Shown: in pieces, positions 1 to 8,797 of the stretch
Numbering within the stretch: position 1 is the stretch's first letter
Layout of the letters: every line of letters starts with the position of its first letter
Source: a virus
Reading direction: 5' to 3' (one strand)
Length of the DNA: 10,131 nucleotides
UHGV virus genome: UHGV-0819168
The notes under the pieces: model-generated
The model's input: only the letters and a program-made list of their open reading frames with translations
Databases searched by the model: none
Told to the model about the DNA's origin: nothing
Made by a program: the position numbers and the translations under genes

Positions 1-127
1 GCGCTGACAGCTTTACCTGGTGATCTTCAGCATCTTCCCGGGCTATTGTGGTTCGCGCAGTGGCTGATTTTGCTGACATCACCACAGGGGGCAGACGGAC
101 CATTGAACCATGGCCTCCGGAACAAAT
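1..127. repeat. Direct repeat copy 1 (127 bp, identical to 2177-2303); left boundary cut by window start
   Basis: Base-for-base identity of 1-127 with 2177-2303; identity stops at 128 (ttt) versus 2304 (aag). Confidence 0.9.
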
Positions 128-1182: not shown

Positions 1183-1190
1183 CCTCACAC

Positions 1191-1264
1191 AACCGCAAAA
1201 TCGGTTGTCGGGATTGGCGTCTCGGATAACATCACAACGCATAGCCGCGTTTGCGGTTTTTTTT
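1191..1264 (+). terminator. Terminator-like or attenuator structure in the leader: 9-bp perfect long-range stem (1191-1199 with 1250-1258) followed by T8; possible small RNA of ~75 nt
   Basis: aaccgcaaa at 1191-1199 is the exact reverse complement of tttgcggtt at 1250-1258; a run of eight T follows (1257-1264); it begins at the predicted transcription start of the 1153 promoter. Confidence 0.35.
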
Positions 1265-1424
1265 GCGTTAAGCATTGCCACATTCGCATTATGGTGGGGC
1301 GTGCAGGGGCGGAGAAATCCGCGCCGGGTTTTGTGATGACCGGTTACGCCAACCCTGTACGTCTCACCACCTCCCTGATTGGCGTCAGAGGTGGTGATCA
1401 TCCAATTAATTGGAGTCATCACAT

Positions 1425-2343: not shown

Positions 2344-2477
2344 AACCGCAGCACGTTCCTGCATACGACGTGTCTGCGGCATAATCCCAATGATTACTCC
2401 CTGACAGGATTTGCAGGCCACTCAATATCAGGTGCAGTTGATGTATCAACACGATTCAACAATACCCGATATTTATT
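2344..2477. repeat. Direct repeat A (~134 bp, ~90% identical to 3394-3526): 3' end of a tfa gene plus a 34-bp imperfect palindrome (2346-2379)
   Basis: Alignment by eye with 3394-3526; contains the last ~28 codons of the minus-strand tfa-like ORF and the palindrome ccgcagcacgt...acgtgtctgcgg. Confidence 0.85.
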
Positions 2478-2663
2478 CCATGCCTCCAGCAACGATCTTT
2501 CTTCCTCCGTTGCGATTTCCAGATCTACAGCATCCTGCAGTGGCGCAATATACTCACTGAATTCCTGGATGTAGAACTGTGTGGTGACGGTCTTCCAGCC
2601 ATTCGGCTCCTGCTGTATCGAAGCATACCAGGCTATTTCAATATCGCTATGCTGCGGCAGCAT
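2394..2663 (-). CDS. tfa: Tail fibre assembly protein, lambda Tfa-like C-terminal domain (89 aa; short, possibly chimeric or remnant)
   Basis: C-terminal 55 aa match lambda Tfa as recalled: [54 protein letters not shown] versus [56 protein letters not shown]-terminal 35 aa unrelated. Confidence 0.6.
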
Positions 2664-2690
2664 TTAACCCCTTGTAATTCATCGCCATAA

Positions 2691-2719
2691 TTGATTTAAT
2701 TCACAAATAAAACTATAAC
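2691..2719 (+). promoter_or_regulatory. Candidate sigma70 promoter for the methyltransferase gene (TTGATT, 17-bp spacer, TATAAC)
   Basis: -35-like TTGATT at 2691-2696 and -10-like TATAAC at 2714-2719. Its position implies a very short leader and use of ATG 2732 rather than ATG 2720. Confidence 0.35.
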
Positions 2720-3388
2720 ATGGTGAAATCAATGAAAAAAAACACAGATGATGGGGCTAAAATTTACACACCACTTACCCTAAAGCTTTATGACTGGTGG
2801 GTTTTGGGAGTATCAAATCGGCTTGCATGGGGATGTCCTACAAAGGAACACCTTCTTCCACACTTTCTGGAACATGTAGGTAACAACCATCTGGATATTG
2901 GTGTTGGAACTGGGTTTTACCTTACTCACGTACCTGAGAGTAGTCTGATATCTTTAATGGATTTGAACGAAGCTAGCCTGAACGCGGCATCTACAAGGGC
3001 TGGGGAATCAAAAATTAAACATAAAATTAGCCATGATGTTTTTGAACCTTATCCCGCGGCGTTACATGGTCAATTTGATTCCATTTCCATGTTTTACCTT
3101 CTTCACTGCCTGCCTGGAAATATATCTACAAAAAGCTGTGTAATACGCAATGCGGCGCAGGCCTTAACTGACGATGGAACTCTATACGGAGCCACAATTC
3201 TTGGCGATGGAGTTGTGCACAATAGCTTCGGTCAAAAACTGATGCGCATTTACAATCAGAAAGGCATCTTTTCAAACACAAAAGATTCCGAAGAAGGCTT
3301 AACACATATACTCTCAGAGCATTTCGAGAATGTTAAAACCAAGGTTCAAGGTACTGTAGTAATGTTTTCCGCTTCAGGGAAAAAATAG
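2720..3388 (+). CDS. Class I SAM-dependent methyltransferase (Rossmann fold, ~220 aa, substrate unknown); AT-rich moron; alternative start ATG 2732
   Basis: Motif I hh-D-h-G-x-G-x-G (HLDIGVGTGFY), post-I acidic residue (SLMDLNE), motif II (FDSISMFYLLHCLP), motif III (LTDDGTLYGATIL) in canonical order. No DPPY/NPPY or C5-cytosine MTase motifs. Markedly lower GC than flanking genes (about 37% in a hand-counted 60-nt line at 3001-3060). Confidence 0.75.
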   Translation: MVKSMKKNTDDGAKIYTPLTLKLYDWWVLGVSNRLAWGCPTKEHLLPHFLEHVGNNHLDIGVGTGFYLTHVPESSLISLMDLNEASLNAASTRAGESKIKHKISHDVFEPYPAALHGQFDSISMFYLLHCLPGNISTKSCVIRNAAQALTDDGTLYGATILGDGVVHNSFGQKLMRIYNQKGIFSNTKDSEEGLTHILSEHFENVKTKVQGTVVMFSASGKK

Positions 3389-3393
3389 CATCC

Positions 3394-3526
3394 AACCGCA
3401 GCACGTTCTTGCTTAAGACGTGCTGCGGCATAATCCCAATGATTACTCCCTGACAGGGTTCGTAGGCCACTCAATATCAGGTGCAGTTGATGTATCAACA
3501 CGGTTCAGTAACACCCGATACTTTTT
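3394..3526. repeat. Direct repeat B (~133 bp, ~90% identical to 2344-2477): perfect 11-bp-stem palindrome (3396-3428) plus a 27-codon tfa 3' fragment ending in a TAG where Trp is expected
   Basis: ccgcagcacgt (3396-3406) / acgtgctgcgg (3418-3428) perfect inverted repeat. Minus-strand translation of 3446-3526 gives [27 protein letters not shown], preceded by TAG at the Trp position. Confidence 0.85.
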
Positions 3527-3574
3527 CTAGGCTTCCACCACCAGCACGACAAGATGCCGCATACAGTGAACCAG

Positions 3575-3769
3575 TCAGTCCAGTTTTCAGACAACCAGTG
3601 CGTCACCTTTTTGAAGGCGCTTTAAAGCACGTTTTAATCCAGGTCGGCCTGTCCTTGTTCCGCTTAATTTATCTTCAAATATTTGTTCATATCCTGCACA
3701 AACAAGAGCGTTTCGTTGCAGATCTGTATTCTGGTCATTTGTTGATACCCTTACATAGCCAATCAGCAC
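3575..3769 (-). pseudogene. pin: pin/gin-family serine DNA invertase, 5' remnant only (~60 codons; TGG to TGA nonsense then loss of the remaining ~120 codons)
   Basis: From GTG 3769 (RBS gggag upstream): MLIGYVRVSTNDQNTDLQRNALVCAGYEQIFEDKLSGTRTGRPGLKRALKRLQKGDALVV-stop-KLD-stop. This matches the Pin/Gin/Hin/Cin N-terminus including the catalytic Ser in VRVSTNDQ, and stops where Pin continues WKLDRLGRS. Confidence 0.8.
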
Positions 3770-3823
3770 GCTGAATCTCCCGTCCAAAAGCACAAATCAT
3801 GCCATGCAGGCCAGAAACCGCCA

Positions 3824-3849
3824 TTATCTAAAACCTCGGTTTACAGGAA
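3824..3849 (+). other. Gin/Pin-family 26-bp inversion crossover site (pix/gix-like, right-type orientation)
   Basis: ttatctaaaacctcggtttacaggaa; reverse complement ttcctgtaaaccgaggttttagataa differs at one position from the gix sequence as recalled. Lies ~50 bp upstream of the pin start. Confidence 0.7.
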
Positions 3850-5971: not shown

Positions 5972-8797
5972 TTAAACGCTCGCTACATTATACCAGGTGC
6001 CATTTATATACTTTTGAACGGGTCTGTAATAAACGCCCGCTATATTATCGGCAGAGTTAGACCCTGTATCCTGAACATTAATACCAGACAATACATGACC
6101 TGAAGGGCACTGGAAATTCCATGTTTGCCAGTTGTTCACTCCATAATATTGCTGTGAACCAAGTCGAACATCTTTCACATAACGGGAATCAAAGTTACCG
6201 TAATCCGAGGGGTTAACACGCCCTGTAATATTTATGGTTTTATTACTTTGAATGCTTCCGGAGACAAAGCGCATAACATGGACGTTATTAGCATAAACAT
6301 CCAGATTACCATCGCCATTTTGTTTAAAGCCCGTGTCATTATCACCCAATACAATCGAATTACCGCCAAGAGCACTGGATGTTCCGATACCCAGTGCACC
6401 ATTCAGTTGACCACCAGATAACGGCAGTGCACCAACATCTCCTGCTGAAGGCTTTCTGGTGGTGGTGTAAAATTCGGACCAGTCGGCTTCAAAACCATAA
6501 CCATCACGGGCTGAACGATAAAAAATACCGCCATTTTTATAATTAATCCGAAACTGAGCTGCAGGACAACTTCCTTCTCCCATATAAAAATGAATAATTA
6601 ACGTTGATGCACCACTAATAGTTGCGTTATAGGCTCCGCTACTCCAGTTCCATCCAACTGCTTTATCATTCGCAACGGTGCTTCCTGTTTTCCCTAAGGC
6701 AAACGCACCAACATGACTTGCTTTTAATGTGATATCGGAGGAACCATCAAAAGCCACATTGCTTATTTTCCTGGCAGTTTTTAATTTTGCAGCTGTAGAA
6801 GCATTGCCGGATAGTTCACCAGAAAGGCCACCGCTGAATGTTTGTCGATTAGTCCAGGTATTCGCTGTACTGAGTAACGGTATTTTCTCCCCGCTTGTGC
6901 CGAGTTCTCGTAAACCGAGGTATTCGATAACGGCGGCAACGGTCGATTTCGCAAGAATATCCCGCCCAACTTTTGTCAGGGTTGCCAGACTGGCAACATC
7001 ATTCCCCGTAAAATACGGAAACCTGTCTGCCGCAGTAGCAAGCCCGGCCAGCGCCGTCAGGGTGGCATCTTTCGGTTGCTTACCCGCAAGCGCGCTAGTC
7101 ATGGTGGTCGCAAAATTCGGGTCGTTGCCCAACGCCGCAGCCAGCTCGTTCAGCGTATTCAGTGCGTCAGGCGACGAGTCCACGAGGGCAGCGATCGCAG
7201 CCATAACATAAGCCGTGCTTGCGATTTGGGTATTATTCGTTCCCTGTCGCGCAGTTGGTGTTGTTGGCGTTCCGGTCAGTGCAGGACTATTTAAGGGCGC
7301 TTTCTTGTTCGTTTCACCCATTACCGCCTTAACCGCTTTTGGCGTTGCCGCCAGTGACTCGGAAGTGCTGTTGGTCGCACTGCTGAGCTGTACTATCCCC
7401 TTTTTCGTCGTGCTCGCATCCTCAAGCGCCACGGCGGATGCAATATCCTCTGCCCGTTTTGCCGCTGTCTCGGCGCGCGTTGCCGCGGATTCCGCCGTAC
7501 TTTTGCTCTGAGCTGCCGCCGTCGCACTGCCAGCTGCCTCTGTCGCCTTCGTGGATGCCGTCGTGGCGCTGCCCTTTGCTGCTGACGCCTGTCTGGTCGC
7601 CTCATCTTTTGAAGCAGACGCAGATGATGCCGATGACGCCGCTGAACTGGCTGACGATGCGGCTGCCGCCTTAGAGGAAGCAGCATTGTCTGCTGAAGTC
7701 TTTGCATTTGTTTCAGAGGTTTTTGCTGCAGAAGCAGACCTCGCTGCTGCAGTGGCTTGCTCAGTGGCTTTGCCAGCCTTCGTTGTGGCTGTTGAAGCGG
7801 ATGATGCGGCGCTTTCTGCCGATTTTCCGGCGGCGGTGGCACTGGCTGAGGCCTGCCCGGCACTTGTTGACGCGGCACTGGCAGATAATGCAGCCGCTGT
7901 TTTTGAACCTGCCGCAGCTGAGGCGCTCTGTCCCGCTGCTGTTTCAGAAGACTTAGCGTTCGTCTCGGACGTTTTTGCCGCCTTCGCGGAATTTCCTGCC
8001 GCCGTTGCCGAGGAAGCTGCACTACTGGCACTTGATGATGCATTCGTTTCTGAAGATTTCGCTGCCTCTTTTGAGGCCGCCGCACCCCGTGCCGAGGTGG
8101 CAGCTTCTGACGCCTTCGTGGTCGCTGTGGATGCAGAAGTGGCTGCCGATTTTTGTGATGCTGCGGCATTCGTTTCTGACGTTTTCGCGGCACTGGCGCT
8201 GGTAGCTGCCGCGCTTTTTGATGACTCTGCAGCAGCAGCACTTTTTGCTGCTTCACGGGCCTTTGTCGATGCCGTTCCTGCGCTGGAAGACGCTGACTGA
8301 GCCGACGACGCGGCCTGTCCGGCTGACGTGCTGGCGGCACGTGATGAGGCTGCAGCATCGGTTGCATGAGTTGCCGCCTCGCTGGCTGATGCACTGGCAT
8401 CGCTGGCTGATTTTTTCGCGGCTGCCGTATTCTGTGCAACCGCGGAGGCGTTACGTGACACCTCTTCTACCATCTGCTCAAAGCGGCGCAGTGCCTCCGG
8501 TCGGACATCATCCTCCGTCATGGCACCGAGAAAATCATTCAGCGTACCTGGTCTGGAACCTTCATAGACGGTAATGGTCCCGGCATGTGAAGGCGGAAAA
8601 CCTTCAACCAGCAGGGTGACGCTGTACTGACCATGCTCAACATCCATGCTGTAACGTCCGGCTTCATCCGGATTTTCAGAGGCCACCGTGTTCACCACCA
8701 CCGTGCTGCTGGTTCGTCTGGCCTTCAGCACAATGGTGCAGTTCTGTACTGGTTTTCCTGTGCCATCTTTAAGCACGCCAGAAATTTTTACTGTCAT
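5972..8797 (-). CDS. stf: Side tail fibre protein, lambda Stf-like (941 aa): conserved N-terminal domain, long Ala/Ser/Thr-rich repeat region, C-terminal ~310 aa encoded inside the invertible segment
   Basis: N-terminus [74 protein letters not shown] is near-identical to lambda Stf as recalled; repeated AAKTSETNA units; VIEYLG junction at the crossover site. Confidence 0.9.
6905..6930 (+). other. Gin/Pin-family 26-bp inversion crossover site inside stf (left-type orientation)
   Basis: ttctcgtaaaccgaggtattcgataa resembles gixL as recalled (TTCCTGTAAACCGAGGTTTTGGATAA), is inverted relative to the 3824-3849 site, and encodes VIEYLGLRE in the stf frame. Confidence 0.65.

What the first reader, a model, noticed from the sequence alone, without database searches (positions are those of the whole stretch)
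2691..3430. AT-rich SAM-dependent methyltransferase moron with its own promoter, inserted between tail-fibre remnants and a dead invertase gene
The 2720-3388 ORF has the full class I (Rossmann) methyltransferase motif set in canonical order and little else (~220 aa), so its substrate cannot be read from the sequence. It is visibly AT-richer than every neighbouring phage gene. It has its own sigma70-like promoter (2691-2719) and is followed by a perfect 11-bp-stem palindrome, and it is transcribed opposite to the tail genes. Those are the hallmarks of a lysogenic-conversion moron. It lacks DNA amino-methyltransferase (D/NPPY) and C5-cytosine MTase motifs, so it is probably not a classical restriction-modification methylase. 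Its position next to host-range determinants (stf, tfa, lom, J) suggests a role in cell-surface modification, superinfection exclusion or anti-defence, but that is inference only.
Basis: partly seen in the sequence, partly recalled or inferred. Interest (0 to 1): 0.75.

Follow-up and report, generated by a model that had tools for sequence, protein, structure and literature searches.

The report
Intact ybcY prophage methyltransferase gene
This is the intact form of ybcY, a small SAM-dependent methyltransferase gene of unknown substrate carried as cargo at the end of lambda-like prophages in about 70% of E. coli genomes, so it is real but already catalogued and ordinary.

Summary
The ORF at 2720-3388 (+) is real and encodes a single-domain class I SAM-dependent methyltransferase. 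It has Pfam hits above cut-off and a 7-stranded Rossmann model with pLDDT 90. It is not new. It is about 99% identical in DNA, flanks included, to E. coli K-12 ybcY, the DLP12 pseudogene between tfaD and tfaX. It matches PHROG 2132 (function unknown) at E = 4e-157.

The gene occurs in 3799 of 5426 complete E. coli genomes and in 14 lambdoid phages. It always lies beyond stf-tfa, near ompT and int. Its -10 hexamer abuts ATG2720, so ATG2732 (218 aa) is the likelier start.

The 11-bp hairpin is real but has no T-run, and it is duplicated together with the tfa 3' end. GC content (41%) matches the adjacent tfa, stf C-terminal and pin genes; it is lower only than J, lom and the stf N-terminus.

Homologues (56-68% identity) are stand-alone chromosomal genes across many bacteria, with no conserved neighbour. 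Fold and profile neighbours are small-molecule or lipid methyltransferases, not DNA methyltransferases. The "moron" reading is supported. The surface-modification and anti-defence roles have no evidence.

The parts
2720..3388 (+). ybcY-type class I SAM-dependent methyltransferase ORF. Annotated as 222 aa; the probable true start is ATG 2732, giving 218 aa.
   Evidence: ORF. Pfam Methyltransf_12/23/25/11 above cut-off. PHROG 2132 at E = 4e-157, with the profile starting at residue 5. About 99% DNA identity to K-12 ybcY. M5 is invariant and is the start of 32 of 33 homologues. ATG2720 is ACG in ABU 83972, where RefSeq starts the gene at the second ATG.
2691..2719 (+).
   Evidence: Read from the sequence. 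The same hexamers are listed for K-12 ybcY in an RpoD-holoenzyme genomic SELEX study, in a spacer that also binds H-NS (PMC3946193). The hexamers there were chosen in silico inside the bound spacer. No transcription start has been mapped.
2664..2691 (+). Alternative promoter-like site TTAACC-16-CATAAT.
   Evidence: It is the only + strand site returned by the consensus scan, and the count is not above chance. It would give a 5' leader of about 33 nt that includes GGTG, 6 nt upstream of ATG2732 (inference from the sequence).
3396..3428 (.). Perfect 11-bp-stem hairpin lying between the methyltransferase stop codon and the tfa 3' remnant.
   Evidence: dG -23.9 kcal/mol on the + strand (z = -5.35) and -28.5 kcal/mol on the - strand. 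There is no T-run immediately after the stem, and the terminator scan does not call it. It is present at the same place in an intact prophage and in phages 2G7b and PhiR26_1.
2344..2491 (.). Left copy of a ~150-bp direct repeat (hairpin plus tfa 3' end) that brackets the methyltransferase cassette.
   Evidence: Repeat families D2 and D5, 89-90% identical to 3394-3540, spacing 1049-1050 bp.
3394..3540 (.). Right copy of the same direct repeat. It includes a tfa 3' remnant at about 3443-3526 (-).
   Evidence: RefSeq annotates a partial tail fibre assembly protein at the matching position in strain A1.S1.126.
2394..2663 (-). tfaX-like fragment of a tail fibre assembly gene, divergent from the methyltransferase gene.
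   Evidence: Pfam Caudo_TAP, C-terminal 56 residues only. Equivalent to tfaX next to ybcY in K-12.
3587..3793 (-). Truncated Pin/Gin-type invertase gene (N-terminal 68 aa only).
   Evidence: Pfam Resolvase, residues 11-68 against profile positions 2-69 of 145. RefSeq annotates 'recombinase family protein, incomplete' at the matching position.

Best explanation
Shown:
- The ORF is the intact allele of E. coli ybcY.
- It is an accessory cargo gene (a "moron") in the region between the tail-fibre genes and att/int of lambda-like prophages.
- It encodes a soluble, single-domain class I SAM-dependent methyltransferase of about 24 kDa.
- The phage copy belongs to a widespread family of stand-alone chromosomal bacterial genes.

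Supported indirectly:
- It is transcribed on its own, convergently to the tail operon, from a sigma-70 promoter in the 27%-GC spacer at 2664-2719.
- That spacer binds RNA polymerase holoenzyme in vitro and is also bound by the silencer H-NS. Expression in a lysogen is therefore probably low and conditional.
- Translation most likely starts at ATG 2732.

Inferred:
- The enzyme binds SAM through motif I (D59-G65), D81 and D106.
- It transfers the methyl group to a small, conserved cellular metabolite. The acceptor is most likely an O atom (carboxyl or hydroxyl) or an N atom.
- The substrate would be held under the N-terminal helical lid (Y16, Y24, D25, W37, C39) and the conserved 178-189 loop (Y178, F184, N186, D189).
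- H129 and/or Y24 would act as general base.
- It needs no partner protein and does not act on DNA.
For: Identity:
- About 99% DNA identity to K-12 ybcY, including the spacer and the hairpin. K-12 differs by a 2-bp deletion that removes the second ATG.
- PHROG 2132 at E = 4e-157.

Cargo status:
- Present in 3799 of 5426 complete E. coli genomes, with every best place at 95% identity or more and the weakest full-length rows shown at 98.4-98.7%. Copy number is 1-4 per genome.
- Full-length in only 14 of 50,697 phage records, all E. coli lambdoid.
- The order is constant: J-lom-stf-tfa, then hairpin, methyltransferase gene, tfa fragment, (hydrolase or appY), ompT, int.
- It is retained intact where the prophage is reduced to an int fragment, a tfa fragment, the methyltransferase gene and ompT.
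- pN/pS is about 0.1-0.17 among alleles, from few differences.

Promoter and H-NS:
- PMC3946193.

Start codon:
-.

Enzyme class:
- Pfam and the AF2 model at pLDDT 90.4.
- The best sequence-profile hits in the PDB are juvenile hormone acid methyltransferase (E = 7e-6) and UbiG.
- Foldseek top hits are PE N-methyltransferase, JHAMT, phosphoethanolamine methyltransferases and natural-product methyltransferases.
- 32 of 67 diverse family members give weak BioC hits and 20 give weak UbiE hits.
- pI is 6.9, with no extra domain and no transmembrane run.

Stand-alone gene:
- 414 clusters at 50% identity score E < 1e-30, nearly all 210-235 aa.
- No neighbour family recurs in more than 6 of 76 loci from many phyla.
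Against: - No substrate is identified.
- No transcription start, expression data or phenotype exists for the intact allele.
- The K-12 ybcY mutant showed no effect in the one assay found, but K-12 carries the pseudogene.
- The roles assigned to individual residues come from alignment and general knowledge of the fold, not from measurements on the model's coordinates.
- K-12 tolerates loss of the gene, so it is dispensable in the laboratory.
Confidence: 0.6

Rival explanations
1. The gene is a selectively neutral passenger in E. coli. It would be kept by linkage to ompT and by frequent recombination between tfa repeats, be silenced by H-NS, and have no function in the lysogen.
For: - K-12 carries a frameshifted copy without obvious cost.
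- The spacer binds H-NS.
- It lies directly next to ompT in decayed remnants.
- The K-12 mutant had no phenotype in the Hha assay.
Against: - The ORF is annotated intact in all 29 full-length sampled rows apart from K-12 derivatives.
- The 100%-identity cluster holds 6589 sequences.
- Synonymous differences exceed non-synonymous ones per site (pN/pS 0.1-0.17).
- The ~150-bp direct repeats flanking the cassette could delete it, yet it persists.
- Active-site and lid residues are invariant across phyla.
Confidence: 0.15
2. It methylates a macromolecule, either a host or phage protein or an RNA (for example a translation factor, tRNA or rRNA), rather than a small molecule.
For: - A few family members give weak hits to PrmC, RlmA or Erm models.
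- A stand-alone gene with no operon partner fits a ubiquitous macromolecular target.
Against: - These hits rank below, and are far fewer than, the small-molecule methyltransferases.
- The protein is neutral (pI 6.9) and has no RNA-binding or substrate-recognition domain.
Confidence: 0.13
3. It is a phospholipid head-group N-methyltransferase working like bacterial PmtA. It would convert phosphatidylethanolamine to monomethyl-PE, dimethyl-PE or phosphatidylcholine in a host that normally lacks them, and so change the envelope of the lysogen.
For: - There is a weak NCBIfam hit to Legionella-type PmtA.
- Like Rt-PmtA (Tyr10, Tyr17, His117), it has two conserved tyrosines in the N-terminal helix (Y16, Y24) and a histidine after strand 4 (H129).
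Against: - The NCBIfam score is 15.7 bits against a cut-off of 390.
- Identity is 15-17%.
- The residue correspondence is by position only and needs different offsets.
- Membrane binding through the arginine residues and C-terminal helix that the Rt-PmtA paper describes was not examined.
- The family occurs in many bacteria not known to make phosphatidylcholine this way (the last clause is from my own knowledge).
Confidence: 0.08
4. It is a DNA methyltransferase that protects phage or host DNA from restriction, or is an orphan epigenetic methylase.
For: - Phages often carry orphan DNA methyltransferases (own knowledge).
- PADLOC gives a 12.9-bit hit to mad2.
Against: - It has no DPPY-type or PCQ motif and no target-recognition domain in 218 aa.
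- No DNA methyltransferase appears among the top 50-60 structural matches.
- The PADLOC hit is at chance level.
Confidence: 0.03

Closest known systems
E. coli K-12 ybcY (b0562), pseudogene of cryptic prophage DLP12 between tfaD and tfaX
   Same: About 99% DNA identity over the gene, the upstream spacer and the downstream hairpin. It has the same neighbours (tfa on one side, tfaX fragment on the other, ompT nearby) and the same TTGATT-17-TATAAC hexamers.
   Different: The window copy is intact. K-12 has a 2-bp deletion that destroys the second ATG and shifts the frame. In the window the cassette sits next to a dead pin invertase and an invertible tail-fibre segment, not next to appY and ompT.
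PHROG 2132 (phage protein family, function unknown) and the methyltransferase of phages 2G7b, ev243, PhiR26_1, Turner and Kati
   Same: E = 4e-157, full-length match from residue 5. Protein identity is 98-100%, at the same position after stf-tfa.
   Different: Nothing substantive. Those phages are inducible or complete and keep hydrolase-ompT-int beside it.
Chromosomal homologues such as Salmonella STM1638 and the Enterobacter, Klebsiella, Yersinia and Pseudomonas genes
   Same: 56-68% identity in Enterobacterales, 40-53% elsewhere. Length is the same (about 218 aa), as are the invariant residues, and each is a stand-alone gene.
   Different: They are not prophage-borne in most genera. The contexts are unrelated to one another. 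All are uncharacterised.
Small-molecule class I O-methyltransferases: juvenile hormone acid methyltransferase, UbiG, BioC
   Same: They share the Rossmann core, motif I, the 'LLH' segment after strand 4 and an N-terminal helical lid. They are the best sequence-profile matches.
   Different: Identity is 21% or less. E-values are 1e-5 to 1e-3, and all NCBIfam scores are far below cut-off. No substrate-binding residues could be matched.
Bacterial phosphatidylethanolamine N-methyltransferase Rt-PmtA (PDB 8ys9)
   Same: It is the top Foldseek match, of similar size (207 aa), with Tyr residues in the N-terminal helix and a His after strand 4.
Lambdoid prophage morons (lom, bor) and cargo loci beyond the tail-fibre genes
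   Same: It is an extra gene present in some relatives only. It has its own promoter-like site, is AT-rich relative to the core structural genes, and sits at the cargo site beside ompT, an alpha/beta hydrolase and a yciGFE/catalase-like block. The moron concept itself is from my own knowledge.
   Different: No lysogen phenotype is known. The terminator is not canonical, and the composition is not distinct from the adjacent tail-fibre C-terminal and tfa genes.

Membership tests
Class I (Rossmann-fold) SAM-dependent methyltransferases | Glycine-rich motif I (E/D-x-G-x-G-x-G) after strand 1 | tested here: met
   D59-I-G-V-G-T-G65. D59, G61, G63 and G65 are invariant in 34 homologues; G65 is invariant in 67 diverse members.
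Class I (Rossmann-fold) SAM-dependent methyltransferases | Acidic residue at the end of strand 2 (binds the ribose hydroxyls) and an acidic residue in motif III | tested here: met
   D81 is invariant in both alignments. H105-D106 are invariant in Enterobacterales. The roles are assigned by analogy with the fold (Asp73 in Rt-PmtA).
Class I (Rossmann-fold) SAM-dependent methyltransferases | Seven-stranded sheet with alternating helices; significant match to curated domain models | tested here: met
Class I (Rossmann-fold) SAM-dependent methyltransferases | Binds SAM and transfers a methyl group | not testable with these tools
   Needs biochemistry.
YbcY / PHROG 2132 | Full-length significant match to the family profile and near-identity to K-12 ybcY | tested here: met
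   E = 4e-157 over profile positions 1-218. About 99% DNA identity (mean column identity) to b0562.
YbcY / PHROG 2132 | Position between a tfa gene and a tfaX-like tfa fragment in a lambdoid prophage | tested here: met
Phage moron (independently expressed cargo gene) | Present in some members of a phage group and absent from close relatives | tested here: met
   Full-length in 14 of 50,697 phage records. Phage Ayreon keeps only the last 36 bp. Absent from about 30% of E. coli genomes.
Phage moron (independently expressed cargo gene) | Own promoter | tested here: inconclusive
   The hexamers are present but not above chance by sequence. RNA polymerase holoenzyme binds the nearly identical K-12 spacer in vitro, and the same hexamers were picked there in silico. 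No transcription start is mapped. The geometry conflicts with ATG2720.
Phage moron (independently expressed cargo gene) | Own terminator | tested here: inconclusive
   There is a strong hairpin 7 nt after the stop codon, but it has no T-run and the scan does not call it. It is duplicated with the tfa 3' end where no methyltransferase gene precedes it.
Phage moron (independently expressed cargo gene) | Nucleotide composition different from neighbouring phage genes | tested here: inconclusive
   GC is 41.1% against 50-58% for J, lom and the stf N-terminal part (p < 0.002). It is not different from tfa, tfa', the stf C-terminal part or pin (p = 0.39-0.92).
Phage moron (independently expressed cargo gene) | Expressed from the repressed prophage and changes the host phenotype | not testable with these tools
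   No expression or phenotype data were found for the intact allele.
DNA N6-adenine / N4-cytosine methyltransferases | (D/N/S)PP(Y/F/W) catalytic motif and a target-recognition domain | tested here: not met
   No such motif. It is a 218-222 aa single domain. No DNA methyltransferase appears in the top structural matches.
DNA C5-cytosine methyltransferases | PCQ motif IV with a catalytic Cys, plus ENV motif VI in order | tested here: not met
   No PC[QN] motif. A lone 'ENV' at 203-205 lies in the C-terminal strands, out of context.
Bacterial phospholipid N-methyltransferase PmtA | Match to the curated family model above cut-off | tested here: not met
   NF045882 scores 15.7 bits against a cut-off of 390.
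Bacterial phospholipid N-methyltransferase PmtA | Catalytic Tyr in the N-terminal helix, His/Ser contacting the phosphate, and membrane-binding arginines with a C-terminal helix | tested here: inconclusive
   Y16, Y24 and H129 are conserved and resemble Tyr10, Tyr17 and His117 of Rt-PmtA. No residue-level superposition was possible. Membrane-binding features were not examined.
BioC / UbiE / UbiG / RquA / CpaM (named small-molecule methyltransferase families) | Score above the curated NCBIfam cut-off | tested here: not met
   The window protein scores at most 18 bits against cut-offs of 162-390. None of 67 family members scores better than E = 8e-10 against any named family model.

The most novel reading that the evidence does not exclude
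The prophage-borne YbcY enzyme could methylate an envelope lipid head group, for example phosphatidylethanolamine to monomethyl-PE, or another abundant host metabolite. That would change the lysogen's membrane or physiology. It would be a previously unrecognised kind of lysogenic conversion present in most E. coli strains.
Probability: 0.07. Interest if true: 0.65.

Novelty: already known. Interest (0 to 1): 0.2.

Why it matters
The gene is one of the most widespread prophage cargo genes of E. coli, present in about 70% of complete genomes. It often sits beside the virulence-associated protease gene ompT, yet its substrate is unknown. Because the laboratory strain K-12 carries a frameshifted copy, standard K-12 screens could not have revealed its function. 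The useful outcome here is practical. Experiments should use the intact allele, start at ATG 2732, and relieve H-NS silencing. As a discovery the finding adds little, because the gene, its family and its promoter are already catalogued.

Tried and rejected
Attempts to find the function or substrate:
- Sequence search of the PDB with the single protein and with a 34-sequence profile gave only weak JHAMT and UbiG hits.
- The afdb50 library was not available.
- NCBIfam on the protein and on 67 diverse family members found no named family.
- PADLOC found nothing meaningful.
- A profile search of 1.84 billion representatives defined the family size but gave no names.
- Cluster names for 10 distant members were only generic "UbiE" or "class I SAM-dependent methyltransferase" labels.
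- Longer homologues were checked for informative fusions. The only extra domain was an RCC1 fusion in one fungal gene model; the rest had no extra Pfam domain.

Genomic context:
- Seven context look-ups, of which six returned loci, and 76 genome loci with neighbour clustering were examined. No partner is conserved; SDR, ABC-F, MCP and GST neighbours occur at chance or lineage level.

Literature:
- Searches for ybcY, WP_000240999, STM1638 and combined prophage terms found no functional study.

Rejected readings:
- DNA methyltransferase: motifs absent.
- Defence-system component: no evidence.
- The hairpin as a methyltransferase-specific terminator: it is duplicated with tfa.
- A role for the two near-invariant cysteines (C39, C130) in binding a metalloid or thiol substrate was considered.
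Full report
**Observation.** The ORF at 2720-3388 (+) exists and is 222 aa long. It scores above Pfam's gathering thresholds for Methyltransf_12 (37.5 bits, cut-off 30), Methyltransf_23, _25 and _11. The class I motifs are in canonical order: D59-IGVGTG65, D81, H105-D106 and D120. An AlphaFold2 model built on 34 homologues has mean pLDDT 90.4 and a seven-stranded sheet. There is no (D/N/S)PP(Y/F/W) or PCQ motif.

The palindrome is real. Stems 3396-3406 and 3418-3428 form 11 perfect pairs, with dG -23.9 kcal/mol and z = -5.35. The neighbours are as described. A C-terminal fragment of a tail-fibre assembly gene lies at 2394-2663 (-). The first 68 codons of a Pin/Gin-type invertase lie at 3587-3793 (-). 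Further right are stf, tfa, lom and J.

**Identity.** The gene is not new. Over 810 bp, covering spacer, ORF and hairpin, it is about 99% identical (mean column identity) to ybcY (b0562). That gene is annotated as a pseudogene between tfaD and tfaX in the cryptic prophage DLP12 of E. coli K-12. K-12 differs by a 2-bp deletion that removes the second ATG and shifts the frame. The protein matches PHROG 2132, a phage family of unknown function, at E = 4e-157. RefSeq names it "class I SAM-dependent methyltransferase".

**Distribution.**
- The ORF alone is found over at least 80% of its length in 3799 of 5426 complete E. coli genomes. Every best place is at 95% identity or more (2855 records at 99% or more), and the weakest full-length rows shown are 98.4-98.7% identical. 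There are one to four places per genome.
- In 50,697 phage records it occurs full-length only in 14 E. coli lambdoid phages, including 2G7b, ev243, the PhiR series, Turner and Kati. tblastn finds no divergent phage relatives.
- The order is constant: J, lom, stf, tfa (all leftward), the hairpin, the methyltransferase gene (rightward), a tfa fragment, then an alpha/beta hydrolase or appY, ompT and int.
- In ABU 83972 the prophage is reduced to an int fragment, a tfa fragment, the methyltransferase gene and ompT.
- In an O157:H7 strain a yciGFE/catalase-like block lies between the methyltransferase gene and tfa.
- This is the usual cargo site of lambdoid prophages (own knowledge). The literature on ompT names ybcY as ompT's neighbour in CFT073, UTI89, 536 and others.

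**Anatomy of the cassette: promoter and start codon.** The consensus scan does not list them, because the last base is C. It expects 2.8 sites by chance in 1.6 kb. On sequence alone the promoter is therefore not significant.

A published genomic SELEX study of RpoD holoenzyme lists a constitutive promoter for ybcY in the ybcY-tfaX spacer of K-12, with exactly these hexamers. It marks the spacer as H-NS-bound. Holoenzyme and H-NS binding there are experimental and in vitro. The hexamers were chosen in silico within the bound spacer. The K-12 spacer differs from the window's at one base, outside both hexamers.

The -10 hexamer ends one base before ATG2720, so a transcript would begin at about 2726, inside the annotated ORF. 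Four observations make ATG2732 (218 aa) the likelier start:
- M5 is invariant and is the first residue of 32 of 33 homologues.
- The PHROG profile begins at residue 5.
- In ABU 83972 the first ATG is ACG, and RefSeq starts the gene at the second ATG.
- GGTG lies 6 nt upstream of ATG2732 (sequence).

A second promoter-like site, TTAACC-16-CATAAT at 2664-2691, would give a normal leader. Which site is used is unknown.

**Anatomy of the cassette: hairpin and composition.** The hairpin has no T-run after it on the + strand, and the terminator scan does not call it. A 90%-identical copy lies at 2344-2372, together with a second copy of the tfa 3' end. These form repeat families D2 and D5, at 2344-2491 and 3394-3540. 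The hairpin therefore travels with the tfa 3' flank. The methyltransferase cassette is bracketed by ~150-bp direct repeats.

GC content is 41.1% (GC3 35.9%). That is clearly below the stf N-terminal part, lom, J and int (p < 0.004). It is not different from tfa (41.6%), tfa', the stf C-terminal part or the pin fragment (p = 0.39-0.92).

**The protein family.**
- Homologues at 56-68% identity occur in Enterobacter, Citrobacter, Klebsiella, Salmonella, Yersinia and Erwinia. Homologues at 40-53% identity occur in Pseudomonas, Dyella, Burkholderiales, Vibrio, Legionella, Nostoc, Acidobacteria and Pseudarthrobacter.
- A profile search of 1.84 billion representatives finds 414 clusters at E < 1e-30. 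Nearly all are 210-235 aa.
- The Salmonella member is STM1638, still described as a "putative SAM-dependent methyltransferase". It lies next to the sRNA gene rydC and cybB.
- Contexts are unrelated between genera. Clustering of 296 neighbour proteins from 76 loci gives no family present in more than six loci. Those that recur are SDR, ABC-F, MCP and GST.
- The gene is 8-12 GC points below its flanks in Enterobacter, Klebsiella and Citrobacter. It is compositionally native in Pseudomonas, Dyella, Pseudarthrobacter and Salmonella.
- Across 67 diverse members, Y24, H57, G65, D81, S121, H129, G157, N186 and D189 are invariant. Y16, D25, W37, C39, C130, P132, K138, Y178 and F184 are conserved at 90% or more.

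**What it probably does.** No named family claims it. NCBIfam scores are 13-18 bits against cut-offs of 162-390. Diverse members give only weak BioC (32 of 67), UbiE (20) and CpaM/NodS hits. The best PDB sequence-profile hits are juvenile hormone acid methyltransferase (E = 7e-6) and UbiG.

My best-supported reading is a partner-independent methyltransferase acting on a small, conserved metabolite. The N-terminal helices and the conserved 178-189 loop would form the substrate pocket. H129 and/or Y24 would act as base, by analogy with the Tyr/His arrangements described for Rt-PmtA. This step is inference, and the substrate is unknown.

**Rivals.**
- Neutral passenger, confidence 0.15. K-12 tolerates a frameshift and the spacer binds H-NS. 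Against this, the ORF is almost always intact, pN/pS is about 0.1-0.17 on few differences, and it persists despite flanking direct repeats.
- Protein or RNA methyltransferase, 0.13.
- PmtA-like lipid methyltransferase, 0.08. It is the top Foldseek hit, but the family model is failed by a wide margin.
- DNA methyltransferase, 0.03. The motifs are absent.
- Surface modification, superinfection exclusion and anti-defence have no evidence. PADLOC gives one 12.9-bit hit.

**Verdict.** The "moron" interpretation is reasonable and partly backed by published in vitro data. The element is the well-catalogued but uncharacterised ybcY, so novelty is "already known" and interest is low. The remaining open question is the substrate. 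K-12 genetics cannot answer it, because K-12 carries the pseudogene.

Noticed in passing
window 3818-3849 and 6905-6936 (inverted repeat); segment 3818-6936: 32-nt inverted repeats (84% complementary) with a gix/pix-like core (TTC..GTAAACCGAGGT) bracket a 3.1-kb segment. The segment holds two alternative tail-fibre C-termini with their tfa genes in opposite orientations. The adjacent pin invertase is truncated to 68 codons, so the host-range switch is frozen unless another invertase acts in trans.
   Followed up: partly
window 1189-1263 (+) and 1287-1374 (+): Rfam matches above gathering score to the Hfq-binding sRNA isrK (72 bits) and the C4 antisense RNA (76 bits). They lie just upstream of the ash/Rha-family regulator ORF at 1410-1982 and form a P1/P7/P4-style immunity module at the prophage edge.
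   Followed up: no
window 1-127 and 2177-2303: A perfect 127-bp direct repeat of an internal integrase segment, 2176 bp apart, flanks the isrK/C4/Rha module. The second copy is an isolated int fragment fused to the tfa-hairpin repeat. This suggests a deletion or recombination that removed the hydrolase-ompT-int block seen in intact phages.
   Followed up: partly
window 2720-2722; L018 5999-6001: The upstream ATG2720 is ACG in E. coli ABU 83972, while the rest of the ORF is intact. K-12's inactivating 2-bp deletion hits the second ATG. Both point to ATG2732 as the functional start.
   Followed up: yes
L103 3501-3536 (phage Ayreon) and E. coli CH4797 (hit H79): Only the last 36 bp of the methyltransferase ORF are present in phage Ayreon and in one E. 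coli genome (in Ayreon, beside the side tail fibre gene). This is either a deletion scar or the original junction of the cassette.
   Followed up: partly
L009 7001-7663 (Salmonella STM1638): The Salmonella homologue lies immediately upstream of, and co-oriented with, the sRNA gene rydC. RydC activates cfa, another SAM-dependent lipid methyltransferase gene. This is probably coincidence and was not examined.
   Followed up: no
L005, L014, L029 (Enterobacter, Citrobacter, Klebsiella homologues): The homologues are 8-12 GC points below their flanks, so the gene looks horizontally acquired in these genera too. The Citrobacter copy sits beside sodC, dinI and a SopA-like gene in what looks like a prophage remnant.
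   Followed up: partly
L019 7167-9380 (O157:H7 prophage): A second copy of a yciG/yciF/yciE-like stress-gene block plus a manganese catalase gene is inserted between the methyltransferase gene and tfa. This shows the site accumulates varied cargo.
   Followed up: no
window 7390-8440 (-), inside stf: The N-terminal half of the side tail fibre gene is 57-62% GC. It encodes a long Ala/Ser/Thr-rich low-complexity stretch with diverged ~30-nt repeats (families D3 and D4). It also generates long spurious ORFs in other frames.
   Followed up: no
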